Part shown: piece by piece, positions 4,803 through 57,048 of the stretch
Position numbering within the stretch: the stretch's first letter is position 1
Layout of the letters: each line of letters starts with the position of its first letter
From: Squalus acanthias
Taxonomy: Eukaryota
Direction: 5' to 3'
Assembly: GCA_030390025.1 (NCBI GenBank)
Contig: CM059432.1
Location: 53,384,001 to 53,448,000 of the forward strand
DNA: 64,000 nucleotides
Translations under genes and position numbers: made by a program
The notes under the pieces: model-generated
What the model saw: only the letters and a program-made list of their open reading frames with translations
The model's database searches: none
What the model was told of the DNA's origin: nothing

Positions 4803-6040
4803 GGGGCTAAAAATTCAATTAGGCCCGAAAATGGATGGGGGGGGAGATTGTGATGCGCGATTGGGCCTCGCCCATTGAAGTAAGGCAGGCAGCAGGTGAC
4901 CTTCAACAACAACAACGTGTATTTATATAGCACATTTAACGTAGTAAAACGTCCCAAGGTGCTTCACAGGGAAATTTGACACCGGGCCACATAAGGAGAA
5001 ATTAGGGCAGGTGACCAAAAGCTTGGTGAAAGAGGTAGGTTTTAAGGAGCGTTTTAAATGAGGTAAGAGAGGCGGAGAGGTTTAGGCAGGGAATTCCAGA
5101 GCGTAGAGACTAGGCAACAGAAGGCACGACCACCAATGGCTGAGCGATTATAATCAGGGATGCTCAAGAGGCCAGAATTAGAGGAGTGCAGATATCTCGG
5201 GGTGTTGTGGGGCTGAAGGAGTTTACAGAGATAGGGAGGGGTAAGGCCATGGAGGGATTCCTGCTGCCTGCTATTTACCATGATTAACGTGTGCAGCCCA
5301 GCACTGAGTGTGCTGCTGAGTGACTGTGCACTTAGCAGGGGGCCAAAGTTTGTGTGAGGGTATCTCTATTTAAAGCCTGCTTCCACTTTTAAAGGCAGTC
5401 TGCACCTCTTAAAGGTGAGGTGCATTCTGCATTCAGCAGCTGCCGGATGTGCTTGTCAAGACAACTGTGGCTCTGTAATGGCTTGACAAGGCAGAGAACG
5501 GGCACCAAGTTTCTCTGACGCAGCACTAGAAGCCTTAGTGCATGGGTAGAATGGAGGAGACAGATCCTTTACCCACAGGGGGCCAGGAGGCCCTCCAGAC
5601 TCATGGTCAGAAGGCAATGGAAGCAGATAGCTGAAGCGATCACTGGGTCACTGCCAGCAGTCTTGCCCCGAGGACCTAGATCCAGTGCCGAAAGAAGTTC
5701 AATGACCTCACACAAGTAGTCAAGGTGAATGAATGCATCTTTAAAAGCCATCTTCCACCAAGTGCACCTAGCCTCACACACTGCTCAAAGCACCACACTC
5801 CCATCACTCAGCTACCAACAATCTCTACCAATCACGACTCATACCTCACATTCATAGCTTCACCTCACCCTCACACACTTAGCTTTGCTGTAAGCCTCGC
5901 ATCAATATCTCAGCTTGCACACACTGCCAGTTATTTAACCATGACAGGCACATCACCCAAACACATTGCACCACACTCACGGACACACTTCTCCTTCTCT
6001 TGGGGGGCAAGGTGGCTCATAACCGCAAACAGCAGCATTT
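4803..6040 (+). mobile_element. Harbinger left-end remnant with degenerate Myb gene exon 1, intron 1 and start of exon 2
   Basis: The end GGGGCTAAAAATTCAATTAGGCCCGAAA resembles 60737. RERAPSFSDAALEALV..QCRKKFNDLTQVVK|gtgaat lies at ~5480-5724. An L2 interrupts it. Confidence 0.7.
4903..5260 (-). mobile_element. L2 LINE 3' fragment
   Basis: Same family and (GTT)n tail as 513-1630; ORF 5054-5281. Confidence 0.9.
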
Positions 6041-16759: not shown

Positions 16760-18356
16760 GGGGGGGAAATTTGGTTGGTTAGCACCACCCGTTAGCGCCT
16801 CTGGCGGGGGCTAACGGGGCGCTAATGAATTACCACCCGAGCATGGCGATTTTAGCGCCGCCCGCAAAATTGACGTGGAGGTTTGCAGTGGCGCTAAACA
16901 CTACCGCCACGATCTCCTGTGCCCTGGAGATCGTGACGTCATTGAAGCGTGCATCACCCCGGACCGGAAATTGATTCTCACCCCCTGCCTCTGCGCCTGC
17001 TGCTAGTAACAACAAGTAGAGGGGGACAGTTTGCAGTCGAATGGGAGCTGGGGGAGCGCTAATTAAAGGCGTGCACTTCCTGCTTTTTCCTGTCGGCAAA
17101 ATATTCTGCATACGCAGGTTAAGAGAGGGAGAGAGGCGTCTGGAGACATTTAACACAAGTTTTGTTCCTCAGCAAGACTTTTCAGGTTCCCATTTCTGTC
17201 AGCTTTATTACTACCACATTTAGAAGATTTAATGGGGCTGTACTAGCTCGGGGCCTCGTCCTCCAGCTTCACCTTCAGAGGCAGCGGAGGCAGAGAGAGT
17301 GGAAAACGTGGCCAGAGGGAAGAGGGCCAACAGGGCTCTGCACAGGAGACCTTACCCTCCCAGGGTATTCCGGGTGCAATTCTCATATATCCATCTGTCC
17401 GAGGAGTAGTGTTTTAGAAGGCTCCGCTTCAGTAAGGAGGTGGTCACTGAGCTCTGCCACCTCCTGCAACCAGAGCTCCAGCCTCAGCTCAGGACCAGGA
17501 CGTCTCTGTCGGTGGCAGTGAAGGTGACGGTGGCTCTCAATTTCTACGCCAACGGCTCCTTCCAGGCTTCAACAGGGGATTTTGCGAACATCTCCCAGTT
17601 CGCTGTCCATTGTTGCATCCGGGAGGTCACAAATGCTCTCTACAAAAGGAGAGGGAGTACATCTCATTCCCCATGACCCGAGACAAACAGCGTGAACGTG
17701 CATGTGGCTTCGCTAGGATAGCGGGCTTCCCCATGGTTCAGGGCGCCATTGACTGCACGCATGTGGCATTGCGGGCACCTCATGAAAATGCAGAGGTTTT
17801 CCGCAACCGGAAAGGCTTCCACTCTCTCAACGTCCAGTTGGTGTGCGAACACAGACAGCGCATCCTCGCCATCAATGCCCGCTATCCTGGCAGCAGCCAC
17901 AATTCATTTATCCTGCGCCAGACTGGTGTCCCAGACCTGTTCCAACTACCGTGTCAACCTCGTGGCTGGCTCCTCGGGGACAAGGGTTATCCACTCTGCA
18001 CCTGGCTGATGACACCGCTCCGTAACCCCAACATTCCTGCTGAGCTCACATACAATGAGAGCCAGAGCGTCACCAGGAACCTGATTGAGAAGACTATCGG
18101 CGTGCTGAAGCAACGTTTCCGGTGTCTTGACCACTCTGGAGGAGCCCTGTGTGCTGTATGCTTCACAACCTTGCAATTCTGAGGACCCAGCCATTGCCAC
18201 CAGGGATTGGTGGACTATCTCAGGAGGAGGAAGAGGGAGAGAGGAGGAGGAGGCGGAGGAGGAGGATGAAGAGAAGGATGAACAGCAACAATGTGGGAGG
18301 GAGGCACTCAATGTTGCTTCTGCAAGGGCCGTTCATGAACGCCTCATAAGACACTG
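16760..18356 (+). mobile_element. Truncated Harbinger: one end plus transposase pseudogene (~17232-18353)
   Basis: TIR-like GGGGGGAAATTTGGTTGG and GCGCC-rich subterminal region. Motifs GAIDCTH, GDKGYP and NLIEKTIG are present, with frameshifts, a stop and a short deletion. Confidence 0.9.
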
Positions 18357-19252
18357 TGGGGTAAAAATTCACTTGGTTGCGCCACCCGTTAGCGCCTTAA
18401 GAGGCGGCCCTGCTAATGGGGCGCAAAGCCGCTAACGCCCGGGCGCAGCGATGTTTGCGCCGCTCGAGAACTTAACTTGAGATTGTGCGGCGGCGCTAAA
18501 ACTTACCGCTGCGACCACCTGCGCGCGCAGATTGTGACGTCATTCCATGGTGCAACGCCCTTGGGGCACCCCGTAGCGGAAATTGAGTGGCGCCCCCTGC
18601 CTTACCGCCTGGCGCTTCCAACGACCAGAAGACTGGAACGCTATCAATTGCTGTGGGGCTGGGGGGGGCGCTATTTAAAGGGGGCCTCTTCCTGTCTTTT
18701 ATTGTTGGTGGCATTTTTGAACTACGCATTCTGAGAGAGAGAGGGAGAGACTTCTGGAGAGATTCAACGTTGTGTGAAGGAGTTTTGGGTACTGAGCAGC
18801 ACTTTGCAGGTTCATTTTGATTTGCCATTCCTTGTATCGATTTAGCAGAGACCGTGTGAGCTGCACTCTGAGCTCTTTGCCTGGTGCTCTCCATTGTTCT
18901 TTCCAGCACATTTGATGTGCAAGTCTCTCCAGGCCGAGATTCAAGGCTGCAATGAACAGGATGTGGATGGAAAGCAAGATTAACCATCCCCTTTAAGAAC
19001 TGGCCCGTGCCATTGTGTGTGTGTTCCATTGCTGACTGACATTACATGAGCTTCGCCAGCGCTCCGAGTTAGCGCCTCACTGCTCGGCCTTTGCGCCTTA
19101 AGAGAGGTGTGCAGCGCCTGCTTTAGCGCTCCACTCACCTCCCGGGGCGGTAAAAGTGAAGTTTCCCGTCAGTGGCGATAATTAGCGCCAGGCGCTAATA
19201 TTTGCGTCCGGACGATATTTGCGCCCCAAATGGGGCGCGACCTAATTTCTAC
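18357..19252 (-). mobile_element. Non-autonomous ~0.9-kb Harbinger deletion derivative
   Basis: Both ends of the 21912-26092 family in reverse orientation, joined at ~18850. It keeps the transposase 5' region and the first codons of the Myb gene. The right TIR is eroded. Confidence 0.85.
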
Positions 19253-19459
19253 GTTTCTTTTCTAACTTCATGTTGGGCAATGAGAAAAATCACTCCATTT
19301 TTAAGAACATAAGAACATTAAAATTAGGAGCAGGAGTAGGCCATACGGTCCCTCAAGCCTGCTCTGCCATTCAATAAGATCATGACTGATCTTCAACTTC
19401 AATCACCATATCCCTTGATTATCTGGAGTCCAAAAATCTATCTATCTCAGCCTTGAATA

Positions 19460-21124: not shown

Positions 21125-22268
21125 TTTAATAGTTTCTCACCATTTAAAAAATATTCTGTTTTTCTATTCTTCCTATCAAAGTGAATAACCTCACATTTCC
21201 CCACATTATACTCCATCTGCCACCTTATTGCCCACTCACTTAATCTGTCTATATCCCTTTGCAGCCTGTTTGCATCCTCCTCACAGCTTACTTTCCTGCC
21301 TAGCTTTGTATCATCAGCAAACTTGGATACATTACACTCGGTCCCTTCACCTAAGTCATTAATAGAGATTGTAAATAGCTGAGGCCCAAGCACTGATCTT
21401 TGCAGTACCCCACTAGTTACAACCTGCCAACCTGAAAATGACCCGTTTTCTGTCCATTAAGCAATCCGCAATCCATGCTAGTATATTACCCCCAATCCCA
21501 TGAGCCCTTATCTTGCGTAGCAACCTTTTATGTGTCACCTTATCGAATGCCTTTTGGAGATCAAAATATACTACATCCACTGGTTCCCCTTTATCTACCC
21601 TGCTAGTTAAATCCTCAAAAAACTCTAATAAATTTGTCAACAACACGATTTCCCTTTCATAAAACCATGTCGGCTCTGCGTTTTAGATCATAATGATTAA
21701 ATTCTGATCTTGCAATTGAACCAACATTGAGTCATGGCTCTCCAATAGCATGGGTGGGCTCAGGCTGGCAGAGGAGAGGGTTGGCATCATTGTATTTTAT
21801 GAGACTAACCTCTCTTAATTTTAATAGCCGCCCTATATGTGAAAAACAAGTGCAGGAAACATAACTAACAGCACATTCGGCTGGGAGGCAGGAAATCCTT
21901 ATAGGCAGCAGGGGGGAAAAATTCAGTCGTGCCCCGTTTGGGGCGCAAATATCGTCCGGGTGCAAAAATTATCGCCTGGCGCTAATTATCGCCACTGACT
22001 GGAAACTTCACTTTTAACGCCCCGGGAGGTGATTGGAGCGCTAAATCAGGCGCTGCACACCTGTCTTAAGGAGCAAAGGCCGAGGAGTGAGGCGCTAACT
22101 CAGAGCGCGAGCGCAGCGCAGATGCTGCCAGTTAGCGAGGGAACACAGACACACTGGCGCCGGCCAGTTCTTAAAGGGGGGGGCAATCTTGCTCCCCAGC
22201 CACACCCTGCTCATTGCAGCCTTGAATCTCGGCCTGGAGAGACCTGTGAATCCATTTTCCAGCCAAGG

Positions 22269-24112
22269 ATGGAGAGGGTGAGAGAACGAGCTGAGCGCTT
22301 CACTGAGCGGGCCTTGGATGCTCTGGTTGGCGCGGTGGAGCGCCGAAGACCAATACTGTACCCAGAGAGTGGCAGGAGGCCTTTGCTGCGCGATTACAGA
22401 AGAGTGTGGAGGGAGGTGGCTCAGCGCGTCTCCTCCAGGAGCATGGTGCCCAGGACCCATTTCCAATGCCGGAAAAAGTTCAACGACCTCACTCGGGTTG
22501 TCAGGGTGAGTGGCTTTTTTGCAATACCTCTCCATCCCTCCATCTCAACCTCACTCTATGGCCAGAGGGTCTTAAAACCACAATTAACAACACTCATCCA
22601 ACACCTATGGCCCTTTCATGAAGCACACACACACATTCCATACTTTGCATACAGTAAGGGCTATTCACCTATGGGAGGCACATCAGACAAGACCATGGCT
22701 GTATACAGTAAGAGCTATTCACCTATGGGAGGCACATCAGGCAAGACCATGGCTGTATACAGTAAGGGCTATTCACCTATGGGAGGCACATCAGGCAAGA
22801 CCATGGCTGTATATTTACTCAGACGCCGTCCTTTTTCTTGCAGGCCAAGCAAGCGCATAATAGGAGACAGCAGCAATGGACGGGTGGAGGGCGGCCTCAG
22901 CTGCAACCCCTCAGCGATCTTGAGGAGCGCGTCCACAGGATTGTGGCAAGCCGGGTGATCGGTCCCGTCGCCACTGGAGACGCCGACCCCGTTCTGGACA
23001 GCAATGGTAAGGTCATCACCTTTTTGTCCTCTGTCCTTCCACTTGTCCCTCACAACACCAGCCTTTGACACTTTCAATCCAACTTACTAACTCGCTGCAC
23101 TTATTCCTCCCTTACTGCCACCCTGTCCTCACGCTAAAGCCACTCTTGTACCTCCCTGCTTTCAGATGGTGATTCACCAGCTGAGGAGACGGGCCCTGAA
23201 GCTGCCAGTGGGAGTGAAGCTGCAGCCGAGGAGGAAGAGGAAGCCGAAGCATCAGTGCCACCCTCTCCCGAGGAAGCCCATGCCGACACTGGGAACACGC
23301 CTTCCCTGGAGGGGAGCAGGGGGGAAGGGTCTGATGAGGGTGAAGCTCCAGGACCCAGCGGGCTGCAGCAACGCGATGGGGGTAGGGAAGCTCGGGGGCC
23401 TTCTCCCCGGAGGGAGAGTATGCCAGCGAGTCCTGCTGCACTGGACGCAGAGGAGGAGCGGCTGATCGCGGAAATGAACACCCAGGCGGTGGGCATGCAC
23501 ACTGAGCTCATGGCTGCAGTGGGTAGGATGCCCGAATGCATTGAAGCACTGGCAAGGAGTGTGGAGCACTTCGCTGCAGCGCAGGCGGATGCGACACTGA
23601 AGCTCAGTGCTGCAATTCAATCTCAGACTGCTCTCATGCAGACTCAGATTGAGGTCATGCGAGCACTGTCTGCTGCCATCCTCGCTGGTTCGTTCACATT
23701 TCCCCGGGGCTCTCACCGCGCCGCAGCAGGCCAGCAATCTGTGCTCCAGCAGATTGCTCCAGATGCTGAGGTGCTGCCCCGTGGGAGTGCCAGTGTGCCA
23801 GTCGAGCAGGGAGTTGCTGTCCTCGCTCAAGATGACAGCATTCCTGCTGTCACCACTGTCACTTCTCCACTGCAGTTGCCACCGCCTGTAGGACAGACTG
23901 CTGCCGCCCATGCAGAGTTGGTGCAGTCTGCAGCCGGGCCCTCCAGGCCCAGAACTGGTCGAGGCCGTCCCTCAAGGGCATCTGCATTGTCAGGGCCTGA
24001 CAGTCAGCAGCCTTCCACCAGCCTTGCTGCAGCCACTGAGGTCCCATTGCGGAGGAGCAGTAGGGTAAGAAGGGGGGAAGGGCGCATGGGAAGGAGTTCA
24101 CCCTCGATGTAG
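22269..24112 (+). CDS. Harbinger Myb/SANT-like (trihelix) DNA-binding protein; predicted exons 22269-22505, 22844-23006, 23166-24112 (448 aa)
   Basis: RERAERFTERALDALV..W..VA..V..RT..QCRKKFNDL followed by the TGGG motif in exon 2. Two GT-AG introns (phase 0 and 1) join into a stop-free frame. Confidence 0.85.
22650..22811 (+). repeat. 54-bp tandem repeat x3 in Myb intron 1
   Basis: Unit TACAGTAAGGGCTATTCACCTATGGGAGGCACATCAGGCAAGACCATGGCTGTA starts at 22650, 22704 and 22758. Confidence 0.95.
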
Positions 24113-24421
24113 GAGGTGTGACAAAATGCTGGTCATTTTTTTATTAAAGGCCGAGGTTCGTGGTCAAACTTTTGTTGAGTGTTTTGCACATGATCTCCAG
24201 GTTGTGAGAACCAGTTATGGTAATGACTTTTTTTGTGTTTATTTGTATGAGTTTGTCATGAAGAAATGACACACACAGAGTTTGTAAAATAAATAAGTTT
24301 TGGTACTCAAAATTTACATGTTTGGTGTTTGGAATCATTGGTGCCTTGGCCGGCTTAGGGGTTGCGTGTTGGGTTCATTCATGCTGTTCTCAATGGCAGA
24401 AGCCATTTCCACAGCAGGGGC

Positions 24422-24520
24422 CTAGAAGCGGCTTGCTATCAACCGCTGACGGACGGCCCTTGCAGTTTCACCATTGTGGGCCGCCCTCACGCCTTGGTGC
24501 TGCTGCTGATCATCCTCCTC

Positions 24521-24551
<31 letters not shown>

Positions 24552-25582
24552 GGTGGTGCTCCAAGGCCTGGTGGCATTGGCTGGGTCCTGAGGATTGCCA
24601 TGTTATGCAGCATGCAGCACACAACTACGAAGTTGGATACTCGCTCAGGCGAGTACTGCAGGGCTCCTCCAGAATGGTCGAGACAGCGGAACCATTGCTT
24701 GAGCACGCCGATTGTGTGCTCCATGATGTTCCTGGTAGCTTGATGGCTCTCGTTGTACCGCAGCTCAGCAGGGGTGTTGGGCGTACGGAGCGGTGTCATC
24801 AGCCAGGTGCTCAGTGGATACCCCTTGTCCCCGAGAAGCCAACCAACTGGCTGATGCGGTGCCTCGAAAAGTTCTGCCACAGTAGTCTGGCGCAGGATGA
24901 AAGCATCGTGGCAGCTGCCAGGATACTGGGCATTGACAGCGAGTATCAGCTGTCTGTGGTCACAGACCAACTGAACATTCAAGGAATGGAACCCCTTTCT
25001 GTTCTGGAAATCCTCGGCATTCTCATGCGGAGCACGCAAAGCCACATGCGTGCAGTCAATGGCGCCCTGCACCATGGGGAAGCCCGCTATCCTCGCAAAG
25101 CCCAGAGCGCGTTCTTGCTGCTTGTCTGGGGTCATGGGGAAAGAGATGAACTCTCGTCTCCTTTTAAAGAGGGCATTTGTGACCTTCCTGATGCAGCAAT
25201 GCACCGCGAACTGGGAGAGATTGGCGATGTCCCCAACAGCAGATTGAAATGAGCCAGTAGCATAAAAGTTCAGAGCCACTGTGACCTTCACTGCCACCGA
25301 CAGAGACGTCCTGGACCTCAGTTGAGGCTGCAGATCTGGCTGCAGCAGGTGGCAGAGCTCAGTGACCACCTCCTTGCTGAAGCGCAGCCTTCGCAGACAC
25401 TGCTCATCAGACATATGAATGTAGGAGAGCTGTTCACGATATACCCTGGGAGGGTAAGCTCTCCTGTACAGACGCCTGTTGGCCCTCCTCCGTCTGGCCA
25501 TCATTGCCACTCTCTCTCTGCGTCTCTGTCTCCTCCGATTCAGCTGGCGCAGGACGACGCCCCCCATCAGTGCAGCCCCCAT
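24422..25582 (-). CDS. Harbinger DDE transposase (HARBI1-like, DDE_Tnp_4 family), ~386 aa, open frame
   Basis: HTH-like LNFYATGSFQ region, catalytic-type motifs GAIDCTH, GDKGYP and RNIMEHTIG, and a C-terminal poly-Glu tract. Confidence 0.93.
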
Positions 25583-25774
25583 ATCTCTTAGCAAGCAAAG
25601 TTATGAAGGCCAGAAACCAAAGTACCAGCGAAGTTAGGATGAGTAGCCAAAAGTATCTCACACAGCGTTGACTCAATGCAGAAGTCTCTCTTTCTCTCTC
25701 TCCGAATCTCTCTCTCTCTCTCAGAACGAGTGGTGCAAAAATGTCAACCACAGAGAAAGACAGGAAGAGGCCCC

Positions 25775-25783
25775 CTTTAAATA
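25775..25783 (-). promoter_or_regulatory. TATA-like box upstream of the transposase
   Basis: TATTTAAAG about 200 nt upstream of the ATG, conserved at 18672-18680 and 46969-46977. Function is inferred. Confidence 0.45.
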
Positions 25784-26606
25784 GCGCCCCCCCCAGCCCC
25801 ACAGCGATTGTTAGCGTTCCACTCTTCCGGTCGTTGGATGCGCCAGGCGGTAAGGATGGGGGCGCCACTGAAATTCTGCTCTGGGGCGCCACAAGGGCGT
25901 TGCACTCTCGTATGACGTCACAATCTGCGCGCGCAGGAGATCGCGGCGATAAAGTTTAGCGCCGCCGCAAAATGTCTAGTTAAGTTCGCGAGCGGCGCAA
26001 ACATCGCTGCGCCCGGGCGCTAGCTGCTTTGCGCCCCATTAGCGCCCTCTTAAGGCGCTAACGGGAGGCGCAACCAACTGAATTTTTCCCCCCAGGTTTT
26101 AAAGGGCTGCCTTAAAAAGTTTGATTGGGTTGAAGCTGTACTTTCATCACACGAAGCAGGAATAGCTGCAGAAAAATTTGGCAGGGCTGTGTGAGGCAAT
26201 AAAATGCCTGGAAGAGCTCCATTTATTGATGAGGCCTTCAGATCATAATCCAATTATTATGTCATTCTGAAATTCTGTACAACAGAGGAATATTGTCTTG
26301 TCACTTGGTTCTTGTATCGCATAATATAAATCTACTTTATGAATGAAGTTTTCAGTGCTCTTAAAACCCACATAATTAAATACTGAATGCTGAATGCAAG
26401 AGTTTCGGAATATATCATCTCACTATGAAGGAAAACAATGAAAAAAAAAGCCCACGGGCTATTTTGGAATGGCTACTGGGCTCCTTATGGGTCTGAAATT
26501 CTGAAAATTGGATACATTTCAAAATTCTACAGGAAAACTACAGTGAAAGGAAAGCACTAAAGATTTCCAGCAGTAAACCAAGCAAAGGGAAATGGTGAAA
26601 ATGATT

Positions 26607-33900: not shown

Positions 33901-36873
33901 GATTTATCAGAATGGTTCTGGGGATGGGGAATCTTAGCTACAAGGACAGGTTGAAGCAGCTAAATTTGTTTTCATTAGAGCAAAGGAGGTTGAGGGGTGA
34001 TTTGATAGAGGTGTACAAGATTATGACGGATTTGGATAGGCTAGAGGGGGAAAGGCTGTTCCCACTAGTTAATGGTACAAGGACTAGATGACACAGATTT
34101 AAGGTTTTGGGCAAGAGATACAGGGAGGATGTGAGGAAAAACTTTTTTATGCAGTGAGTGGTGAGGACCTGGAATTCGCTGCCAACGGAAGTGGTGGAAG
34201 CGGAGACACTCAATGTTTTTAAGGGGAGACTGGATAGGTACTTGAGGGAAATAAACTTGCAGGGCTACGGGGATGGAGCGGGGGAATGGGACTGACTGGA
34301 TTGTTCTGCAGAGAGCCAACGTGGACTCGATTGGCCGAATAGCCTCTTTCTGTGCTGTTATGACTCTATGACACTATGCGCCTGCTGCCCTTGTCCTTCT
34401 AGGTGGAAGAGGTCATGGGTTTGGGAGGTGCTGCCGAAGAAGTCTTAGCGAGCTGTTGCAATGCATCTTGTAGATGGTACACACTGCAGCCACAGTACGC
34501 CGGTGGTGGAGGGAGTGAATGTTTAAGGTGGTGGATGAGGTGCCAATCAAGTGGGCTGCTTTGTCCTGGATGGCGTTGAGCTTCTTGAGTGTTGTTGGAG
34601 CTGCACACATCCAAGAAAGTGGAGAGTATTCCATCACACTCCTTACTTGTGCCTTGTAGATGGTGGAAAGACTTTTGGGAGTCAGGAGGTGAGACACTCA
34701 TCGCAGAATATCCAGCCTCTGACCTGCTCTTGTTGCCACAGTATTTATGTGGCTGGTCCAGTTAAGTTTCTGGTCAATGGTGACCCCCCAGGATGTTGAT
34801 GGTGGGGGATTGGTGATGGTAATGCTGTTGAATGTCATGGGGCGGTGGTGAGACTCTCGCTTGTAGGAGATAGTCATTGCCTAGCACTTGTGTGGCGCGA
34901 ATATTACCTGCCACTTATCAGCCCAAGCCTGAATGTCGTCCAGGTCTTGTTGCATGCGGGCATGGACTGCTTCATTATCTGAGGAGTTGCGAATGGCACT
35001 GAACATTGTGAGTCATCAGCGAACATCCTCATTTCTGACCTTATTTTATTTATTGATGAAGCAGCTGAAGATGGTTGGGCCTAGGACACTGCCCTGAGGA
35101 ACTCATGCAGCGATGTCCTGGGGCTGTGATGATTGACCTCCAACCACCACAACCATCTTCCTTTGTGCTGGATATGGCTCCAGCCAATGCAGAGTTTTCC
35201 CCCCGATTGACTTCAGTTTTACTAGGGCTCCTTGATGCCACACTCGGTCAAATGCTGCCTTGATGTCAAGGGTAGTCACTCTCATCTCACCTCTGGAATT
35301 CAGCTCCTTTGTCCATGTTTGGACCAAGGCTGTAATGTGGTCGGGAGCCTTGGCGGAACCCAAACTGGGCATCAGTGAGCAGGTTATTGGTGAGTAAGTG
35401 CCGCATGATAGCACAGTCGATGACACCTTCCATCACTTTGCTGATGATTGAGAGTAGACTGATGGGGCGGTAAATTACCGGATTGGATTTGTCCTGCTTT
35501 TTTGTGGACAGGACATACCTGGGCAGTTTTCCAGATTGTCGGATAGATGTCAGTGTTGTAGCTGTACTGGAACAGCTTGGCTAGAGGCACAGCTAGTTCT
35601 GGAGCACAAGTCTTCAGCACGGCAGCCGGGATGTTGTCGGGGCCTACTGCATTTGCTGTATCCAGTGCGCTCAGCTGTTTCTTGATAATTCGTGGAGTGA
35701 ATCCAATTGGCTGAAGACTGGCTTCCGTGATACTGGTGACCTCAGGAGTAGGCCGATATGGATCATCCACTCGGCACTTCTGGCTGAAGATGGTTGCAAA
35801 CGCTTCAGCCTTGTCTTTTGAACTGACGTGCTGGGCTCCACCATCATTGAGGATGGGGATATTCATGGAGCCTCCTCTTCCCGTTAGTTGTTTAATGGTC
35901 CACCACCATTCATGATTGGATGTGGCAGGACTGCAGTGCTTTGATCTGATTCATTGATTCTGGGATCGCTTAGCCCTGTCTATAGAATGCTGCTTCCGCT
36001 TTATAGCATGCATGTAGTCCTGTGTTGCAGCTTCACCAGGTTGGCACCTCATTTTTAAGTATGCCTGGTGCTGCTCCTGGCATGCTCTTCTACACTCCTT
36101 ATTGAACCAGGGTTGGTCCCCTCTCTTGATGGTAATGGTAGAGTGAGGGATATGCTGAGCCATGAGGTTACAGATTGTGTTGGAATACAATTCTGCTGCT
36201 GCTGATGGCCCACAGCGCCTCGTGGATACCCAGTTTTGAGCTGCTAGATCTATTCTGAATCTATCCCATTTAGCACGGTGGTAGTGCCATACAACATGAT
36301 GGAGGGTATCCTCAGTGTGAAGACGGGACTTCGTCTCCACAATGACTGTGTGGTGGTCATTACTATCAATGCTGTCATGGACAGATACATCTGCGACAGG
36401 TAGATTGGTGAGGACCAGGTCAAGTAGGTTTTTCCCTCGTGATGGTTCTCTCACCACCTGTCGTAGGCCCAGACTGGCAGCTATGTCCTTCAGATCTCGA
36501 CCAGCTCGGTCAGTAGTGGTGCTACCGAGCCACTCTTGGTGATGGACATTGAAGTCCCCTACCCAGAGTACATTCTGTGCCCTTGCTACTCTCAGAGCTT
36601 CTTCCAAGTGGTGTTCAACATGGAGTACTGATTCATCAGCTGAGGGAGAGCGATAGGTGTTAATCAGCAGGAGGTTTCCTTGCCCATGCTTGACCTGAAG
36701 GCATGAGACTTCATGGGGTCCGGAGTCAATGTTGAGGAGTCCCAGGGCCACTCCTTCCTGACTGTATAACACTGTGCTGCCACCCCTGGTGGTTCTGTCC
36801 TGCCGGTGGGACAGGACATACCCAGGGATCGTGATGGAGGAGTTCGGGACATTGGCTGAAAGGTATGATTCTG
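30982..36873 (-). mobile_element. APE-RT LINE copy 2, split by a CR1 at 31236-34375
   Basis: Same endonuclease and RT motifs as copy 1. 3' piece at 30982-31235, remainder at ~34376-36873. Frameshifts present. Confidence 0.92.
31236..34375 (+). mobile_element. CR1 LINE with partial ORF1 (SGNH/esterase-like) and ORF2 (APE plus RT), internally deleted at ~33780
   Basis: FPGARVKD..VVHISTND..DGLHLN; YVNAQS, ITETW, GDFNYP, SDH; QHGFVKGRSCLTNL. The sequence jumps from YIN to LVRPQLEYC, so FADD is lost. (CTATGA)n-like tail. Confidence 0.93.
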
Positions 36874-42142: not shown

Positions 42143-43543
42143 GTGCACCTAAACTATGCTGTGCCTGACCAGGCCGAGCAGCGCTGAATTTGGTGTACCA
42201 GTCCATTAATGTGGCCTGGTTGTACCCTCAGTGCAGACCACCCCTGGCAGTGCCTTGAACTTCTTGTGCCTAGAGGTGGAAAAAGCAGTGCTTCAGGGCC
42301 TTCTGACTGCTGTTGGAGAAGGGTACACCTTCTCAGGGCAACTAGTGGTTGCCAATAAATGCGGCCTTGCCAACTTCGCCCACATCTTGAGAACTAATAA
42401 AAATAAGAAAGCATCAGAGAGGCTCAGGAAATTTACAAATTCAAGTCAGACTGGAGGCACTGGCCTCGTTATTAACCTGCCCACGATGGGTGTGAGAGAG
42501 TCGGGGGGAGGTTAAAAATGAAAAAAACGGGGAACGTGCTCCTAACCCGCTACGTACGCATACGTTGCTGTTTTTAGGGGATGGGTTTCGAGGGTTCAAG
42601 TGTCCCGCCGTGGAGAGGCTGTCAATTTGGCCAGCTGCCGGACGGGAAACAGAAGAAAAAAGTGATAATGAGATCCTGTCATTAAATTCGGAAGGACCTC
42701 CGTGTCCCTGGTCGTGTCAGGTTCCCCGGCTGTTTCCGACCTCCCCCGCACCCTTCCCACTTCCCCGTAAGTATCGGGGCCACGGTGTCTGTACATGCAT
42801 ATATGGCACAAGAAGTCACTGTGGATCCTGAAAAGGCCTATTCCGAAGGCCAAAGAAGTAATGTATGCACATAATAGAAAAAAGATCATGGAGAAAAGCC
42901 TGAGCTCATGAAGTATCATGAAGGAAGTTCCAGGCAAAATTTCCTGGTCTGGAATTTCCTCCGTCACTTCACCACTCCACACAGTTCTACCATTCATTTC
43001 GGGCATGAGGAGGAAAATCCAAGGTCCCCAGCTGAAGAATCCGAGCAAAAGCTAAATCAATGCCCCTGAAAGAGGAAGAAAAAGTTAGTGGAGGTAAGAT
43101 GACACGGGGAAGCGCATGGTACAGTCTCGTGATTTTTTTCACAAATATAAAATTTTTATGAGTTTATTTTGTTATAAATTTAGGGGGAGAAATTCGGTAT
43201 CGCCCCGTTTGGGGCGCAATTATCGGCCGGGTGTAAAGTTTAGCGCCTGCAGCTAATTATCGCCTCCGACTGCAAACTTGGCTTTTATCGCCTCTGGATG
43301 TGATTGGAGCACTAAATCAGGCGCTACACACCTGACTCAAGAGGCAAAGGCCGAGGAGCGAGGCGCTACCTCAGAGCGCGGGCGAAGCTCAGGTGATGTC
43401 AGTTAGCAATGGAACACAGACACACTGGCGCCGGCCAGTTCTTAAAGGGGAGGGTCAAACTTGCTCTCCAGCCACACCTTGCTCATTGCAGCCTTGAATC
43501 TCGGCCTGGACAGACCTGTACATCGATTCTGCAGCAAAGGACT

Positions 43544-45327
43544 ATGGAGAGGGTCAGGGAGCGAGCTCAGCGCTTCAGTGACCGGGCCTTGGTGGCTCTG
43601 GTTGGCGCGGTGGAGTGCAGAAGAGCTATACTCTACCCTGAGAGTGGCAGAAGGCCATTGCCGTGCGACTACAGAAGAGTGTGAAGGGAGGTGGCTCAGC
43701 ACGTCTCCTCCAGGACCCATACTCAATGTCGCAAAAAGTTCAACGACCTCACTCGGGTCATCAGGGTGAGTGGCTGTTTTTCAATACCTCTCCATCCTTC
43801 CATCTCAACCTCACTCTATGGCCAGAGGGTCTTAAAACCCCAATGCCCAACACTCAACCAAGACCTATGGCCCTCTCATAAAACACACACACACATTCCA
43901 CACCTTGCATACAGTAAGGGCTATTCAACTATGGGAGGGACAGCAGGCAAGACCACGGCTGCATACAGTAAGGGCTATTCAACTATGGGAGGCACATCAG
44001 GCAAGACCATGGCTATATATTTACTCAGACGCCGTCCTTTTTCTTGCAGGCCAAGCTATCTCATAACAGGAGACAGCAGCAACGGACGGGTGGACGGCGG
44101 CCTCAGCTGCAACCCCTCAGCGATCTTGAGGCGCGCGTCCACAGGATCGTCGCAAGCCAGATGATTGGCCCCGTCGCCCCTGGAGAGGCCGACCCCGTTC
44201 GGGATAGCAATGGTAAGGTCATCAGCTTTCTCTCCTCTCTCATTCCACTTGTCCCTCACAACACCAGCATTTGACACTTTCAATCCAACTTACTAAATCG
44301 CTGCACTCCTTCCTCCCTTACTGCCCCCCTGTCCTCACGCTAAAGCCACTCTTGTACCTCCCTGCTTTCAGATGGTGATTCACCAGTTGAGGAAACAGAC
44401 CCTCAAGCTGCCAGTGGGAGTGAAGCTGCAGGTGAGGAGGAAGAGGATGCTGGAGCCTCAGCGCCACCCTATCCCGAGGAAGCCCATGCCCACACTGGGA
44501 CCATGTCTTCCCTGGAGGGGAGCAGGGGGGAAGGGTCTGATGAGGGTGAAGCTCCGGGACCCAGCGGTCTGCAGCAACGCCATGGGGATAGGGAAGCTTG
44601 GGGGCCTTCTCCCCGGAGGGAGAGTATGCCAGCGAGTCCTGCTGCACTGGACGCAGAGGAGGAGTGGCTCATCGCTGAAATGAACACCCAGGCGGTGGAC
44701 ATGCACACTCAGCTCATGGGTGCAGTGGGAAGGGTGCCCGAAAGCATTGATGCACTGGCAAGGAGTGTGGAGCACTTCGCTGTAGCACTGGCGGATGCCA
44801 CGCAAATGCTTAGTGCTGCAATTCAGTCACTGGCTGCCGTGATCCCACCTCTGACTGCTCTCATGCAGACTCAGATTGAGGCCACGCAAGCACTGACTGC
44901 TGCCATTGTCGTTGGTTCGGACACATTTCCCTGGGGCTCTCACTGCGCCGCAGCAGGCCATCAATCTGTGCTCCAGCAGATTGCTCTGGATGCTGAGGTG
45001 CTGCCCTGTGGGAGTCCCAGTGTGTCGGTCGAGCAGGGAGGTGATGTCGTCTCTCAAGATGACAGCATTCCTGCTGCCACCACAGTCACTTCCCCATTGC
45101 ACTTGCCACCGCCTGTAGCCCAGACCGCTGCCGCCCATGCAGAGTTGGTGCAGTCTGCAGCCGGGCCCTCCAGGCCCAGAGCTGGTCGAGGCCGTCCTTC
45201 AAGGGCATCTGTAGTCTCAGGTTCTGACAATCAGCAGCCTTCCACCAGCCTTGCTGCAGCCACTGGGGCCCCATTACAGAGGAGCAGTAGGGTGGGAAGG
45301 GGGGAAGTGCGCAAGGGCAAAAAGTAG
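43544..45327 (+). pseudogene. Myb/SANT gene of the second Harbinger; exons 43544-43765, 44050-44212, 44372-45327
   Basis: Same splice sites as copy 1. TGG>TGA stop at 43682-43684 and a 15-nt in-frame deletion in exon 1. The intron repeat is present twice (43910-44017). Confidence 0.85.
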
Positions 45328-45639
45328 GAGGTCTGACAAAATATTGGGAATGTTTTTATTAAAGGCCAAGGTTCGTGTAATAACTTTTGTTTAGTGTTTT
45401 GGCCATTATCTCCCGGTTGTGAGAACCAGTTATGTTAATTAATGATTTTTTGTGTTTGTTTCTATTAGTTTGTCACGAAGAAATGACACACACAGAGTTT
45501 GTAAAATAAATAAGATTTTGTATTGAAAATGTACATGTTTGGCCTTTGGAATCATTGCTGCCTTGGCCGGCTATAGGGGTTGTGGGTTGCTTTTCATCAT
45601 GTTGTTCTCCATGCCAGAAGCCATTTCCTCAGTAGGGGC

Positions 45640-46785
45640 CTAGAAGCGGCTTGTTATCAGTCTTTGACGGATGGCCCTTGCAGTTTCAACATTATTGGCC
45701 TCCCTCCCGCCTTGGTGCTGCTGCTGATCATGCTCCTCCTCTTCCTCCTCCTCCGGTGGTGCACCAAGGCCTGGTGGCATTGGCTGGGTCCTGAGGATTG
45801 CAAGGTTATGAAGAATGCAGCACACAACTATGAAGAGGGAGACTCGCTCAGGCGAATACTGCAGGGCTCCTCCTGAGTGGTCCAGACAGTGGAACCGTTG
45901 CTTGAGCACGCCGATCGTCTGCTCAATGATGTTCCTGGTGGCGAGATGGCTCTCATTCTACCACAGCTCAGCAGGGGTGTTGGGGTTACGGAGCGGTGTC
46001 ATCAGCCAGGTGCAGAGTGGATAACCCTTGTCCCCGAGGAGCCAACCACTTGGCTGATGCGCTGCCTGGAAAAGCTCTGGCACACCAGTCTGGCGCAGGA
46101 TGAAAGCATCGTGGCTGCTGCCAGGATAGCGAGCATTGACAGCGAGCATCAGCTGTCTGTGGCCACAGACCAACTGGACATTTAAGGAGTGGAACCCCTT
46201 GTGGTTTCGGAAAACCTCTGCATTCTCCTGCGGTGCCCGCAATGCCACATGCGTGCAGTCAATGGCACCCTGCACCATGGGGAAGCCCGCTATCCTCGCA
46301 AAGCCGAATGCGCGTTCATGATGTTTGGCCCGGGTCATCAGGAAAGAGATGTACTGGCGTCTCCTTTTATAGAGGGCATTTGTGACCTGTCGGATACAGC
46401 AATGGACCGCGAACTGGGAGATATTGGCAATGTCCCCAGTAGCTGTTTGAATGGAGCCGGTGGCATAAAAATTCAGAGCCACTGTGACCTTCACTGCCAC
46501 CGACAGAGATGTCCTGGTCCTCAGTTGAGGCTGCAGATCTGGTTACAGCAGGTGGCAGAGCTCAGTGACCACCTCCTTGCTGAAGCGCAGCCTGCGCAAA
46601 CACTGCTCCTCAGACAAATTAATGTAGGAGAATTGTTCCCGGAATACCCTGGGAGGGTAAGGTCTCCTGTGCAGAGGCCTGTTGGCCCTCCTCCGTCTGG
46701 CCATGATTGCCACTCTCTCTCTGCGTCTCTGATGCCTCCGATTCTGCACAGGACGATGCCCCGAATCAGTGCAGCCCCCAAAGTC
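45640..46785 (-). pseudogene. Harbinger transposase with two in-frame stops and a damaged N-terminus
   Basis: ORF pieces 46543-46794, 45958-46500 and 45640-45909 share one frame. DDE motifs are retained. Confidence 0.9.
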
Positions 46786-47719
46786 TCTTGACAATCGAAG
46801 GAATGAAGGTCAAATCGAAAAGAACCTGAAAAGTGCTGCTCAGTAGCCAAAACTACTTCACACAGCATTGACTCTATGTAGAAATCTGTCTCTCTCAGAA
46901 TCTCTCTCTCTCTGTCAGAATGAGTGGTGCAAAAAAGTCTCCCACAAAAAAAGGCAGGGAGAAGGTGCCTTTAAATAGCGCTCCCCCCACCCCTCACGGC
47001 TGGAAAACATTCCAGTCTCCCTGTCGTTGCTTGCGGCAGGCGGAAAGGTGGGGGGTGCCACTCAATATCCAGTCCGGGGCTCCACCGGGGCGTTACACGC
47101 TTGACTGATGTCACGATCTACGGGCACAGGAGATCGGGTTGGTAGAGTTTTGCGTTGTCGCAAAAACACTGGTCAATTTCACGAGCGGCGCAAACATCGC
47201 TGCGCCCGGGTGATAGTTGCTTTGCACCCCATTAGCGCCCTCTTAGGGCGCTAACGGGAGGCGCAAACCAACCGAATTTTCCCCTTAATCTTTAAAGAAC
47301 TGCAATGGAGTGATTAGGAACCAATTAGCTGCTGAAAGGAGTTTTAATTTTTTGTTGAGGAATTTAATTGGATAGCTTTGTAGTGAATGCTGGTTGTTCA
47401 TTAGCTGTGCAATTTGTTTCCAAAAACATTAAGTGACTTTTCTTTAAGATAGTGGTGTTTGTTTGATTGGATTTTACTGAATGGGACTTTGAGCCAATTA
47501 GTAACCTTCTTGCCCTATAGATTTTCTGTTCCCTACAGGCATTTTCTACCCTGCAAACAGTTTTTGCTCTAAGAAACTGTGTCAGACGCAAACCTTTTCA
47601 TTATGTAGATCTTTGTCTCGGTACGATTCTTTGTCCACTTTTTCTTGGTAAATTTAGCAAAAAGGTAGATGTGAATAAAAAGTGATGTAATTTGTGGAAA
47701 AAATACTCAATTGAAGTGC

Positions 47720-50631: not shown

Positions 50632-52531
50632 CCATGCTATAGACAGGGTTACGCGATCTCACAACCAACGGATCAGATCAAAGCTCGGCAGTCCTATCAC
50701 ATCCAGTCGTGAATGGTGGTGGACCATTAAACAACTAACGGGAGGAGGAGGCTCCATGAATATCCCCATCCTCAATGATGGTGGAGCCCAACACGTGAGT
50801 GCAAAACACAAGGCTGAAGCATTGCAACCATCTTCAGCCAGAAGTGCCGAGTGGATGATCCATATCGGCCTACACCCGAGGTCCCCACCATCGCAGAAGC
50901 CAGTCTTCAGCCAATTCGATTCACTCCACGTAATATCAAGAAACGGTTGAGCACACTGGATACAGCAAAGGCTATGGGCCCCGACAACATCCCGGCTATC
51001 GTGCTGAAGACTTGTGCTCCAGAACTAGCCACGCCTCTAGCCAAGCTGTTCCAGTACAGCTACAACACTGGCATCTATCCGAAAATCTGGAAAACTGCTC
51101 AGATATTTCCTGTCCACAAAAAGCAGGACAAATCCAATCCGGCCAATTACCGCCTTATCAGTCTACTCTCAATCATCAGCAAAGTGATGGATGGTGTCAT
51201 CGACAGTGCTATCAAGTGGCACTTACTCACCAATAACCTGCTCACAGATGCCCAGTTTGGGTTCCGCCAAGACCACTCGGCTCCTGACCTCATTACAGCC
51301 TTGGTCCAAACATGGACAAAGGAGCTGAATTCCTGAGGTGAGGTGAGAGTTACTGACCTTGACATCAAGCCAGCATTTGACCGAGTGTGGCATCAAGGAG
51401 CCCTAGTAAAACTGAAGTCAATAGGAATCGGGGGGTGGGGGGGGAAACTTTCCACTGACTGGAGTCATACCTAGCGCAAAGGAAGATGGTTGTGATGGTT
51501 GAAGGTCAATCATCACAGCCCCAGGACATCGCTGAAGGAGTTCCTCAGGGCAGTGTCCTAGGCCCAACCATCTTCAGCTGCTTCATCAATGACCTTCCCT
51601 CCAACATGAGGTCAGAAATGGGGATGTTCGCTGATGACTGCACAATGTTCAGCACCATTCACAACTCCTCAGATAATGAAGCAGTCCATGCCCGCAAGCA
51701 ACAAGACCTGGATGATGTTCAGGCTTGGGCTGATAAATGGCAGGTAACATTCGCGCCACACAAGTGCCAGGCAATGACTATCTCCAACAAGCGAGAGTCT
51801 AACCACTGCCCCTTGACATTCAACGGCATTACCATTGCTGAATCCCCCACCATCAACATCCTGGGGGTCACCATTAACCAGAAACTTAACAGGACCAGTC
51901 TCATAAATACCGTGGCAACAAGAGCAGGTCAGAGGCTAGGTATTCTGCGGCAAATGTCTTACCTCCTGGCTCCCCAAAGCCTTTCCACCATCTACAAGGC
52001 ACAATTAAGGAGTGTGATGGAATACTCTCCACTTGCCTGGATGAGTGCAGCTCCAACAACACTCAAGAAGCTCTACACCATCCAGGACAAAACAGCCCGC
52101 TTGATTGGCACCCCATCCACCACCTTAAACATTCACTCCCTCCACCACTGGTGTACCATGGCTGCAGTGTGTACTATCTACAAGATGCACTGCAGCAACT
52201 CGCCAAGGCTTCTTCGGCAGCACCTCCCAAACCCGCGACCTCTTCCACCTAGAAGGACAAGGGCAGCAGGCGCACGGGAACACCACCACCTCCAAGTTCC
52301 CCTCCAAGTCACACACCATCCTGACTTAGAAGTATATCGTCGATCCTTCATCGTCGCTGGGTCAAAATCCTGGAGCTGCCTCCCTAACAGCACTGTGGGA
52401 GTACCATCACCGCATGGACTGCAACGGTTCAAGAAGGCGACTCACCACCACCTTCTCAAGGGCAATTAGGGATGAGCAATAAATGCTGGCCTTGCCAGCG
52501 ACGCCCACATCCCATGAATGAATAAAAAAAA
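50632..52531 (+). mobile_element. APE-RT LINE copy 3, 5'-truncated (RT plus 3' end)
   Basis: ORFs 50851-51336 and 51486-52469 (GVPQGSVLGP, FADD); ends ATGAATAAAAAAA. Confidence 0.92.
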
Positions 52532-54499: not shown

Positions 54500-57048
54500 A
54501 TTGTTTTATGGGATGTGGGCGTCGCTGGCAAAGCCAGCATTTATTGCCCATCCCTAATTGCCCTTGAGAAGGAGCTGGTGAGCCGCCTTCTTGAACTGCT
54601 GCAGTCCGTGTGGTGAAGGTACCCCGACAGTGCTGTTAAGTAGAGAGTTCCAGGATTTTTACCCAGTGACGATGAAGGAATGGCGATATATTTCTAAGTC
54701 AGGATGGTGTGTGATTTGGAGGGGAACTTGGAGGTGTTGGTGTCCCCATGTGCCTGCTGCCCTTGTACTTCTAGGTGAAAGAGGTCACAGGTTTGGGAGG
54801 TGCTGCTGAAGAAGCCTTGGCGAGTTGCTGCAGTGCATCTTGTAGATGGTACACACTGCAGCCACAGTACGCCGGAGGTGGAGGGAGTGAATGTTTAAGG
54901 TGGTGGATGGGGTGCCAATCAAGTGGGCTGCTTTGTCCTGGATGGTGTCGAGCTTCTTGAGTGTTGTTGGAGCTCCACTCATCCAGGCAAGTGGAGAGTT
55001 TGCCATCACACTCCTTAATTGTGCCTTGTAGATGGTGGTAAGGCTTTGGGGAGTCAGGTGGTGAGACACTCGCCACAGAATACCTAGCCTCTGACCTGCT
55101 CTTGTTGCTACAGTATTTATGTGGCTGGTCAATGGTGACCCCCAGGATGTTGATGGTGGGGGATTTGCTGGTGGTAATGCGGTTGACTGTCAAGGGGTGA
55201 TGGTTAGATGCTCGTTTGTTGGAGATAGTCATTGCCTGGCACTTGTGTGGTGTGAATGTTACCTGCCACTTATCAGCCCAAGCCTGAATGTTGTACAGTT
55301 CTTGTTGCATGCGGGCAAGGTCTGCTTCATTATCTGAGGAGTTGCGCATGGCACTGAACACTGTGCAGTCATCAGTGAACATCCCCACTTCTGACCTTAT
55401 GATAGAGGGAAGGTCATTGATGATGCAGCTAAAGATGGTTGGGTCTAGGACACTGCCCTGAGGAACTCCTGCAGCGATGTCCTGGGGCTCTGATGATTGA
55501 CCTCCAACCACCACAACCATCTTCCTTTGTGCTAGGTATGACTCCAGCCAGTGGAGAGTTTCCCCCCCGATTCCCATTGACTTCAGTTTTACTAGGGCTC
55601 CTTGATGCCAGACTCGGTCAAATGCTGCCTTGATGTCAAGGGCAGTCACTCTCACCTCACCTCTGGAATTCAGCTCCTTTGTCCATGTTTGGACCAAGGC
55701 TGTAATGTAGTCGGGAGCCGAGTGGTCTTGGCGGAACCCAAACTGGGCATCAGTGAGCAGCTTATTGGTGAGTAAGTGCCACTTGAAAGCACTGTCGATG
55801 ACACCATCCACCACTTTGCTGATGATTGAGAGTAGACTGATGGGGCGGTAATTGGCCGGATTGGATTTGTCCTGCTTTTTGTGGACAGGACATACCTGGG
55901 CAGTTTTCCAGATTTTCGGATAGATGTCAGTGTTGTAGCTGTACTGGAACAGCTTGGCTAGAGGTGTGGCTAGTTCTGGAGCACAAGTCTTCAGCACGAT
56001 AGCCGGGATGTTGTCAGGGCCCATAGCCTTTGCTGTATCCAGTGCACTGAGCCAATTCTTGATATCACGTGGAGTGAATCGAATTGGCTGAATACTGGCT
56101 TCTGTGATGTTGGGGACCTCAGGAGTAGGCTGATATCTTCCACTCGGCACTTCTGGCTGAAGATGGTTGCAAATGCTTCAGTTTTGTCTTTTGAACTGAT
56201 GTGCTGGGCTCCACCATCATTGAGGATGGGGATATTCATGGAGCCTCCTCCTCCCAAAAGTTGTTTAATGGTCCACCACCATTCACGATTGGATGTGGCA
56301 GGACTGCAGAGCTTTGATCTGATCCATTGATTGTGGGATCGCTTAGCCCTGTCTATAGCATGCTGCTTCTGCTTTTTAGCATGCATGTAGTCCTGTGTTG
56401 CAGCTTCCCCAGGTTGGCACCTCAGTTTTAGGTACACCTGGTGCTGCTCCTGGCATGCTCTTCTGCACTCCTTTTTGAACCAGGGTTGGTCCCCTGGCTT
56501 GATGGGTAATGGTAGAGTGAGGGATATGCTGGGCCATGAGGTTACAGATTGTGGTGGAATACAATTCTGATGCTGCTGATGGCCCACAGTGCCTCATGGA
56601 TGCCCAGTTTTGAGCTGCTAGATCTGTTCTGAATCAACCCATTTAGCACGGTGGTAGTGCCACACAACACGATGGAGGGTGTCCTCAGTGTGAAGACGGG
56701 ACTTCGTCTCCACATTTACTATGCGGTGGTCACAGCTAGCAATACTGTCATGAACAGATGCATCTGCGACCGGTAGATTGGTGAGGACAAGTTCAAGTAG
56801 GTTTTTCCCTCGTGTTGGTTCTCTCACCATCTGTCGCAGGCCCAGACTGGCAGCTATGTTCTTCAGGACTCGGCCAGCTCGGTCAGTAGTGGTGCTACCG
56901 AGCCACTCTTGGTGATGGACATTGAAGTCCCCCACGCAGAGTACATTCTGTGCCCTTGCTACTCTCAGTGCTTCTTCCAAGTGATATTCAACATGGAGGA
57001 GTACTGATTATACAGCTGAGGGAGGGCGGTAGGTGGTAATCAGTAGGA
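54500..57048 (-). mobile_element. APE-RT LINE copy 4, 5'-truncated
   Basis: ORFs 56618-56980, 55991-56587 and 54771-56150. The catalytic motif reads FTDD; frameshifts present. Confidence 0.92.

What the first reader, a model, noticed from the sequence alone, without database searches (positions are those of the whole stretch)
21912..26092. Structurally complete two-gene Harbinger transposon with both reading frames open
Seen: perfect 16-bp TIRs, a CAG TSD, an uninterrupted transposase with all three DDE-type motifs, and a spliceable partner gene. Known: Harbinger3_DR needs both a transposase and a Myb-like protein, and most vertebrate copies are dead. Inference: this is a young or easily revivable element in a probable elasmobranch genome, able to mobilise the nearby derivatives.
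Basis: partly seen in the sequence, partly recalled or inferred. Interest (0 to 1): 0.7.

Follow-up and report, generated by a model that had tools for sequence, protein, structure and literature searches.

The report
Worn full-length shark Harbinger transposon copy
This is a complete two-gene cut-and-paste jumping gene with both genes still readable, but it is one copy of a very abundant family in what is likely a shark genome and carries its own change at a near-invariant enzyme position, so it is likely an ageing passenger of a known kind of element rather than a working one.

Summary
The anatomy is real: perfect 16-bp TIRs, CAG duplication, an open 386-aa DDE transposase and an open three-exon 448-aa Myb/SANT partner, transcribed towards each other. 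Closest proteins are shark and ray 'HARBI1' models, at best 68% identical. It is not special. The window holds a second full-length copy and several fragments, and DNA runs cover the element at 10^4-10^5 times flank depth (not a copy number). The copy differs from at least 75% of family depth at 28-50 of 4,181 places. At 1% neutral drift both frames stay open in about 45% of simulations. It has Trp at position 297, where 49 of 53 distant DDE-complete homologues have Arg and none Trp. Intron 2 is spliced in family contigs of 4 of 4 probable RNA runs; intron 1 splicing and this copy's own transcripts were not seen. No empty site was seen. Intact Harbinger copies are published for sea kraits, and Harbingers are listed in shark repeat tables. 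The scan noted at least eight such open-frame copies elsewhere in this genome. New member of a known kind.

The parts
21909..21911 (.). left target-site duplication CAG
21912..21927 (+). left TIR, 16 bp, begins GGG
21928..22211 (.). left subterminal region with repeated GGCGC-type motifs (6 in the first 300 bp against 0.75 per 300 bp inside); likely Myb binding sites
   Evidence: binding is inferred from Harbinger3_DR as described in PMC2836001
22171..22179 (+). TATA-like TTAAAGGGG motif 98 bp before the Myb ATG; the same motif occurs once more, before the transposase
   Evidence: promoter role inferred
22269..22505 (+). Myb/SANT partner exon 1 (79 codons, DNA-binding domain)
22506..22843 (+). 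predicted intron 1 (GT..AG), with one more 54-bp repeat unit than the neighbouring copy; spliced form not seen in RNA contigs
   Evidence: gap-free homology across the junction to P0009
22844..23006 (+). Myb partner exon 2
23007..23165 (+). intron 2 (159 nt, GT..AG), removed in family contigs of 4 of 4 probable RNA runs
   Evidence: table 5; not among the 15 shown of 64 DNA joints
23166..24112 (+). Myb partner exon 3 to stop: acidic stretch, hydrophobic middle, basic tail; 21-nt in-frame gap after 23619 relative to copy 2
24113..24421 (.). spacer where the two genes converge; AATAAA at 24288 (+) and at 24140 and 24238 (-)
24422..25582 (-). DDE transposase, 386 aa, open; D176/D226/D252/E288 present; W297 (codon 24694-24692) where homologues have Arg
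25772..25780 (-). TATA-like TTAAAGGGG motif about 190 bp before the transposase ATG
   Evidence: promoter role inferred
25793..26076 (.). right subterminal region with repeated GGCGC-type motifs (13 in the last 300 bp)
26077..26092 (-). right TIR, 16 bp
26093..26095 (.). right target-site duplication CAG
43183..47285 (+). second full-length copy, 3574 of 4073 aligned bases identical; TTA duplication; 2 stops in the transposase and 1 in Myb exon 1
18358..19255 (-). non-coding internal-deletion derivative, 87% identical to both ends; one TIR has lost its terminal G-run
16760..18332 (-). truncated relative: broken transposase plus right end only

Best explanation
This is a full-length copy of a very abundant two-gene PIF/Harbinger cut-and-paste transposon family in a likely shark genome, and it is likely an ageing, partly crippled passenger whose two frames stay open because too few mutations have yet hit them. 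Shown here: the ends, the 3-bp duplication, two convergent open genes, the catalytic residues, very high family depth, family-level splicing of intron 2, and copy-specific replacements including R297W. Inferred from Harbinger3_DR and Ping/Pong: the Myb protein binds the ends (probably the GGCGC-rich subterminal repeats) and brings the transposase to the nucleus and the TIRs; the transposase cuts the element out and inserts it into a 3-bp target. Inferred: R297W, at the end of the helix that carries the catalytic Glu, lowers or abolishes this copy's transposase activity, while its perfect TIRs could still be moved by proteins from a healthier sister copy.
For: Anatomy. Abundance: summed contig depth 2e5-3e6 over the element against 6-13 on the flanks in two DNA samples of organism A, and 1e4-2e5 in organisms B and C; seven transposase-bearing segments in 64 kb. 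Drift: the window letter differs from at least 75% of depth at 47, 50, 28 and 40 places in the four DNA runs (sums table 1). Of the 40 places shown (of 70), I scored 18 as differing in all four runs; 7 of the 18 are CpG losses, and of the 14 in coding sequence 10 change the residue. Both frames stay stop-free in 44-46% of simulations at 1% divergence. R297: Arg in 49 of 53 distant DDE-complete homologues, Trp in none; Arg in 81 of 116 close homologues, Trp in 2; the Arg-type letter in 86-100% of depth in the four probable RNA runs and in window copies 2 and 3. It is a CpG transition. Past purifying selection between lineages: transposase dN/dS 0.36 and 0.20 against copies 2 and 3.
Against: All catalytic residues and both TIRs are perfect, and only 3 of 57 strongly conserved columns differ, two of which (51, 129) are shared with copy 2. 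The effect of R297W is untested. The 10:4 ratio fits neutral decay (omega 0.81, p 0.76) but cannot be told from the between-copy ratio (Fisher p 0.42), and wider row sets give omega 0.5-0.65, so some differences may have been inherited from an active parent. Depth shares from contigs are noisy: 11% against 96% at one place in two runs of the same organism. Place 24694 was not among the 40 DNA rows shown.
Confidence: 0.8

Rival explanations
1. This copy, or a small subfamily identical to it, is a competent autonomous element that moved recently and can mobilise its derivatives.
For: Perfect TIRs and duplication, both frames open, D176/D226/D252/E288 kept; confident predicted fold, pLDDT 89; the 21-nt gap in the Myb frame keeps frame; the family is transcribed.
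Against: W297 is seen in none of 53 distant DDE-complete homologues. At many diagnostic places no RNA contig shown carries this copy's letter (contigs drop rare variants). A second sample from another study has a contig running from the right flank 23 bases into the element, which suggests the insertion is shared but is below the tool's 31-letter bridging rule; no empty-site joint was among the 15 shown of 64. At 7e-10 per generation, 0.3-1.2% divergence is about 4-17 million generations (2-85 million across the published interval) if the changes arose after insertion.
Confidence: 0.12
2. The locus is a domesticated host gene pair of the HARBI1/NAIF1 type, kept open by host selection.
For: Both frames are open; databases name the homologues 'putative nuclease HARBI1'.
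Against: Intact TIRs and duplication, a second copy with other flanks 21 kb away, very high family depth, copy-specific changes mostly non-synonymous.
Confidence: 0.03
3. The open state is an assembly artefact: a collapsed consensus of many copies.
For: The family is highly repeated.
Against: A collapsed consensus would carry majority letters, whereas this copy carries minority letters at 28-50 places. Contigs of run X1 match both flank-to-end stretches with 0 differences (X1 may be the source sample).
Confidence: 0.03

Closest known systems
Harbinger3_DR / Harbinger3N_DR of zebrafish (Sinzelle et al. 2008; primary paper not held; seen through passages of PMC2836001, PMC3016246 and PMC9179366)
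   Same: Transposase plus Myb-like protein, short TIRs, CWG-type target. The empty site here matches the published 15-nt target consensus at 10 of 15 positions, which 70 of 3001 CWG-centred sites in the window reach.
   Different: Harbinger3_DR was rebuilt from consensus and shown to transpose; nothing here is assayed. Sequence identity to it was not measured.
NuwaI group of the PHIS superfamily (Han et al. 2015, PMC4482050; passages read)
   Same: CWG duplication, TIR beginning GGG and within 12-61 bp, two ORFs, about 4.2 kb against a mean of about 4.5 kb.
   Different: The paper states PHIS elements are absent in sharks. The 88%-identical sister copy here has a TTA duplication, so the family straddles the CWG/TWA split. 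Tree placement was not tested.
Harbinger-Snek of sea kraits (PMC8437027; passages read)
   Same: Mass expansion of a two-gene Harbinger in a vertebrate, many intact copies (269 in one species), RNA reads over both genes, solo-ORF and short derivatives.
   Different: Harbinger-Snek came by horizontal transfer 15-25 Mya. Here the closest proteins come from many sharks and rays, which fits a long-resident lineage; transfer was not tested.
Shark and ray 'putative nuclease HARBI1' gene models
   Same: 40-68% identical transposases (the 120 hits listed), many per species, often with degenerate catalytic motifs, as expected of annotated transposon copies.
   Different: None above 68%: this family's own proteins were not among the hits.

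Membership tests
PIF/Harbinger (broad sense, PMC9179366) | terminal inverted repeats | tested here: met
   16 bp perfect; shorter than the usual 25-50 bp given in that paper
PIF/Harbinger (broad sense, PMC9179366) | 3-bp target-site duplication | tested here: met
   CAG
PIF/Harbinger (broad sense, PMC9179366) | DDE transposase ORF | tested here: met
   DDE_Tnp_4 E 6.5e-40; D176, D226, D252, E288 are the majority residues in close and distant homologues
PIF/Harbinger (broad sense, PMC9179366) | second ORF with a Myb/SANT domain | tested here: met
   Myb_DNA-bind_5 E 2.8e-9; intron 2 spliced at family level
PIF/Harbinger (broad sense, PMC9179366) | both proteins needed for transposition; Myb binds the ends and the transposase | not testable with these tools
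   needs a cell assay
PIF/Harbinger group in the strict sense (Han et al. 2015) | TWA duplication | tested here: not met
   CAG in this copy; TTA in the sister copy
NuwaI (Han et al. 2015) | CWG duplication; TIR 12-61 bp starting GGG; two ORFs | tested here: met
   met for this copy, but the sister copy has TTA
NuwaI (Han et al. 2015) | first Asp among strands, second between strand and helix, Glu in a helix | tested here: met
   predicted model only: D176 in strand 171-182, D252 after strand 248-250, E288 in helix 271-297
NuwaI (Han et al. 2015) | falls in the Nuwa clade of the transposase tree | not tested
   no named reference sequences were fetched
Domesticated HARBI1/NAIF1-type host genes | single copy, no TIRs or duplication (recalled) | tested here: not met
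Currently active autonomous element | conserved transposase residues intact | tested here: not met
   R297W
Currently active autonomous element | insertion polymorphism or near-identical copies | tested here: inconclusive
   no empty site among the joints shown; contigs too short to phase copies; no genome held

The most novel reading that the evidence does not exclude
A lineage of this family is still naturally transposing in a shark germ line: a high-copy, spliced and expressed vertebrate Harbinger whose native proteins need no reconstruction, in a group where PHIS elements were reported absent, and with a relaxed target (CAG and TTA) that breaks the duplication-based classification.
Probability: 0.25. 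Interest if true: 0.5.

Novelty: new member of a known kind. Interest (0 to 1): 0.2.

Why it matters
Modestly. A 2015 survey called PHIS elements absent in sharks, and a 2022 one found none in elephant shark and asked for other cartilaginous fish to be checked. Shark genome papers of 2021 and 2025 list Harbingers only as a repeat class. A described high-copy family with full anatomy fills that gap and shows that open frames in slow-mutating sharks do not imply activity. If a sister lineage is still active, it would give a natural vertebrate two-component Harbinger for mechanism and tool work; a sequence search found no solved relative of the transposase. This particular copy is not the one to build on.

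Tried and rejected
No genome is held for the window, so copies could not be counted or phased. Two searches for Myb partner homologues failed (none; only the query), so the Myb changes (such as L40, Q82, W91) could not be scored for conservation. No RNA holder is on record; the RNA runs are the tool's guess, though their GT..AG joint fits RNA. The intron 1 joint was not among the 8 joints listed in 4 runs, and contigs reading from exon 1 into intron 1 exist; family differences next to the junction may hide the joint. RNA contigs show no cover of the flanks, which is no evidence of silence. The depth ratios of 1.5e4-1.4e5 are not copy numbers. Organism C's flank contig (26115-26372, 9 differences in 258) stops short of the junction and says nothing on presence. 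Solved-structure search by sequence hit only the poly-Glu tract; Foldseek gave no match at E<=0.001, only weak DDE transposases and integrases. The terminal-branch dN/dS test was underpowered. No complex prediction was run. Literature searches found no description of an elasmobranch Harbinger family; Repbase, Dfam, subscription journals and supplements (for example the repeat tables of PMC8455134 and PMC12498223) were not seen and may hold one.
Full report
Observation. The element runs from 21912 to 26092. Its first and last 16 bases are a perfect inverted pair starting GGG, with CAG directly outside both ends; about 0.0015 such arrangements are expected by chance in the window. The minus strand holds an open 386-aa frame from 25582 to 24422 that matches Pfam DDE_Tnp_4 at E 6.5e-40. 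D176, D226, D252 and E288 are present and are the majority residues in close homologues. The plus strand holds a three-exon gene (22269-22505, 22844-23006, 23166-24112) with GT..AG introns that gives 448 aa with no internal stop; exon 1 matches Myb_DNA-bind_5 at E 2.8e-9. The genes converge on a 309-bp spacer with AATAAA on both strands, and each has one TTAAAGGGG motif upstream. GGCGC motifs number 6 and 13 in the terminal 300 bases against 0.75 per 300 inside.

Host and family. Of 380 homologues at E<=1e-20, the 120 listed are mostly shark and ray models named 'putative nuclease HARBI1', the best at 68%; a shark host is likely. No genome is held. The window itself has a second full-length copy at 43183-47285 (3574 of 4073 aligned bases identical, TTA duplication, stops in both genes), a truncated relative at 16760-18332, a non-coding derivative at 18358-19255 and a more distant two-gene element from about 61000. 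Seven segments carry transposase remnants. Twenty runs from 11 studies and ten coded organisms hold part of the stretch; I laid 8 of them. In the four DNA runs (organisms A, A, B, C) summed contig depth over the element is 1e4-3e6 against 0-13 in the outermost flank bins. The tool warns this is no copy number, but the family is clearly very abundant and shared by several organisms.

How young is this copy? The window letter differs from at least 75% of depth at 47, 50, 28 and 40 places in the four DNA runs, 70 places in all, of which 40 were shown. One of the 40 lies in the flank and was dropped. I scored 18 of the other 39 as differing in all four runs and 21 as differing in some; shares are noisy, up to 11% against 96% in two runs of one organism. 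Of the 18, seven are CpG losses and 14 are coding, with 10 replacing a residue and 4 silent. That fits neutral decay (omega 0.81, p 0.76) but cannot be told from the pooled copy 1-copy 2 ratio of 0.47 (Fisher p 0.42); wider row sets give 0.50 and 0.65. Between lineages, selection is clear: transposase dN/dS is 0.36 against copy 2 and 0.20 against copy 3, though CpG decay inflates dS. In simulations both frames stay stop-free in about 70% of cases at 0.5% divergence, 44-46% at 1% and 9% at 3% (substitutions only, 600 runs each). Open frames are therefore expected in a copy this close to its family. At the epaulette shark rate of 7e-10 per generation (PMC10587355, passages), 0.3-1.2% means about 4-17 million generations, 2-85 million across the published interval, if the changes arose after insertion (another species' rate, with CpG sites not corrected in the upper figures).

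Is the transposase sound? AlphaFold2 on an alignment of 54 sequences gives pLDDT 89 and pTM 0.83, with E288 in helix 271-297. From 132 new representatives I kept the 77 that were at most 43% identical and covered residues 100-325; 53 of these keep all four acidic residues. At position 297 these 53 have Arg 49, Lys 2, Cys 2, Trp 0. The window has Trp, from a CpG transition. Window copies 2 and 3 carry the Arg-type letter, as do 86-100% of depth in the four probable RNA runs. Of 57 columns at least 80% conserved, the window differs at three; the other two (51, 129) are shared with copy 2. Q193 and M287 are also rare (0 and 1 of 53). The Myb frame has at least seven replacements against the family and a 21-nt in-frame gap against copy 2; their weight could not be judged because two homologue searches failed. 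That R297W impairs activity is an inference.

Expression and mobility. All four probable RNA runs (two studies, organisms A and E) have contigs that skip exactly the predicted 159-nt intron 2 at GT..AG, at depths 336, 426, 622 and 52. This joint is not among the 15 best-supported of 64 DNA joints, so family transcripts are likely spliced. The intron 1 joint was not among the 8 listed; one contig uses its acceptor from another donor, and a shark gene model aligns without gaps across the junction. At many diagnostic places no RNA contig carries this copy's letter, so the transcripts seen come from other copies; contigs cannot prove absence. Run X1 matches both flank-to-end stretches exactly but may be the source sample. 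Run X5, from another study, has a contig from the right flank 23 bases into the element, which suggests the insertion is shared but is short of the 31-letter rule. No empty-site joint was shown.

Mechanism. By analogy with Harbinger3_DR and Ping/Pong (PMC2836001, passages; PMC9179366, passages), the Myb protein would bind the ends and bring in the transposase, which would excise the element and insert it with a 3-bp duplication. The empty site matches the Harbinger3_DR 15-nt target consensus (PMC3016246, passage) at 10 of 15 positions, which 70 of 3001 CWG-centred sites in the window reach. This copy is most likely a weak or dead source of transposase but a good substrate. Of the neighbours, only copy 2 keeps near-intact ends; the derivative at 18358-19255 has lost the terminal G-run at one end.

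Comparison and novelty. It meets every sequence feature of the broad PIF/Harbinger superfamily and the NuwaI features of Han et al. (PMC4482050, passages), though the sister copy's TTA duplication blurs that boundary. Han et al. call PHIS elements absent in sharks, and Etchegaray et al. found none in elephant shark. The whale shark and grey reef shark papers list Harbingers as a repeat class (one passage each). Intact vertebrate copies are already known: 269 in one sea krait species (PMC8437027, passages). Searches found no family-level description for sharks; Repbase, Dfam and supplements were not seen. Unchecked notes of this scan report at least eight similar open-frame copies in this genome; I did not test those loci. 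Verdict: a real, ordinary, ageing member of a known kind of element; interest 0.2.

Noticed in passing
window:27799-29957: A 2.2-kb element of another Harbinger-like family, with imperfect GGGGGAGAAATTCG-type ends and TTA/TAA-like flanks. It resembles the decayed Myb-bearing pieces at 5487-5870 and 61195-63023 and has no transposase hit: a likely Myb-only derivative. Three of its ORFs gave no Pfam hit.
   Followed up: partly
window:15890-16660: A 771-bp element with short inverted ends (12 of 14 match) and no other copy in the window; probable MITE.
   Followed up: partly
window:16760-19255: A truncated transposase-bearing copy abuts an internal-deletion derivative of the same family 25 bp away; possibly one inserted at or deleted the other.
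   Followed up: partly
window:21909-21911 and 43180-43182: Two copies 88% alike have different duplication classes (CAG and TTA), which Han et al. use to separate NuwaI from PIF/Harbinger.
   Followed up: partly
window:22506-23165 against 43183-47285: Between copies 1 and 2 the Myb introns differ by 6-7% while the terminal regions differ by 14-21%, also outside CpG sites; possibly a mosaic of subfamilies.
   Followed up: no
window:24097-24112: Family contigs carry a longer, Lys-rich end of the Myb frame than this copy, and copy 2 has a 12-nt gap nearby; the basic tail, a possible nuclear-import signal, varies among copies.
   Followed up: no
window:22028-22843: One RNA contig (run X19, depth 7) splices from a donor in the left subterminal region to the intron 1 acceptor, skipping Myb exon 1.
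   Followed up: no
window:10079-13477, 34369-36564, 50633-52531, 54500-56937: Several 90-94% identical copies of another repeat about 3 kb long; not identified.
   Followed up: no
window:21055-21682: Broken reverse-transcriptase (LINE-type) fragment just left of the element.
   Followed up: no
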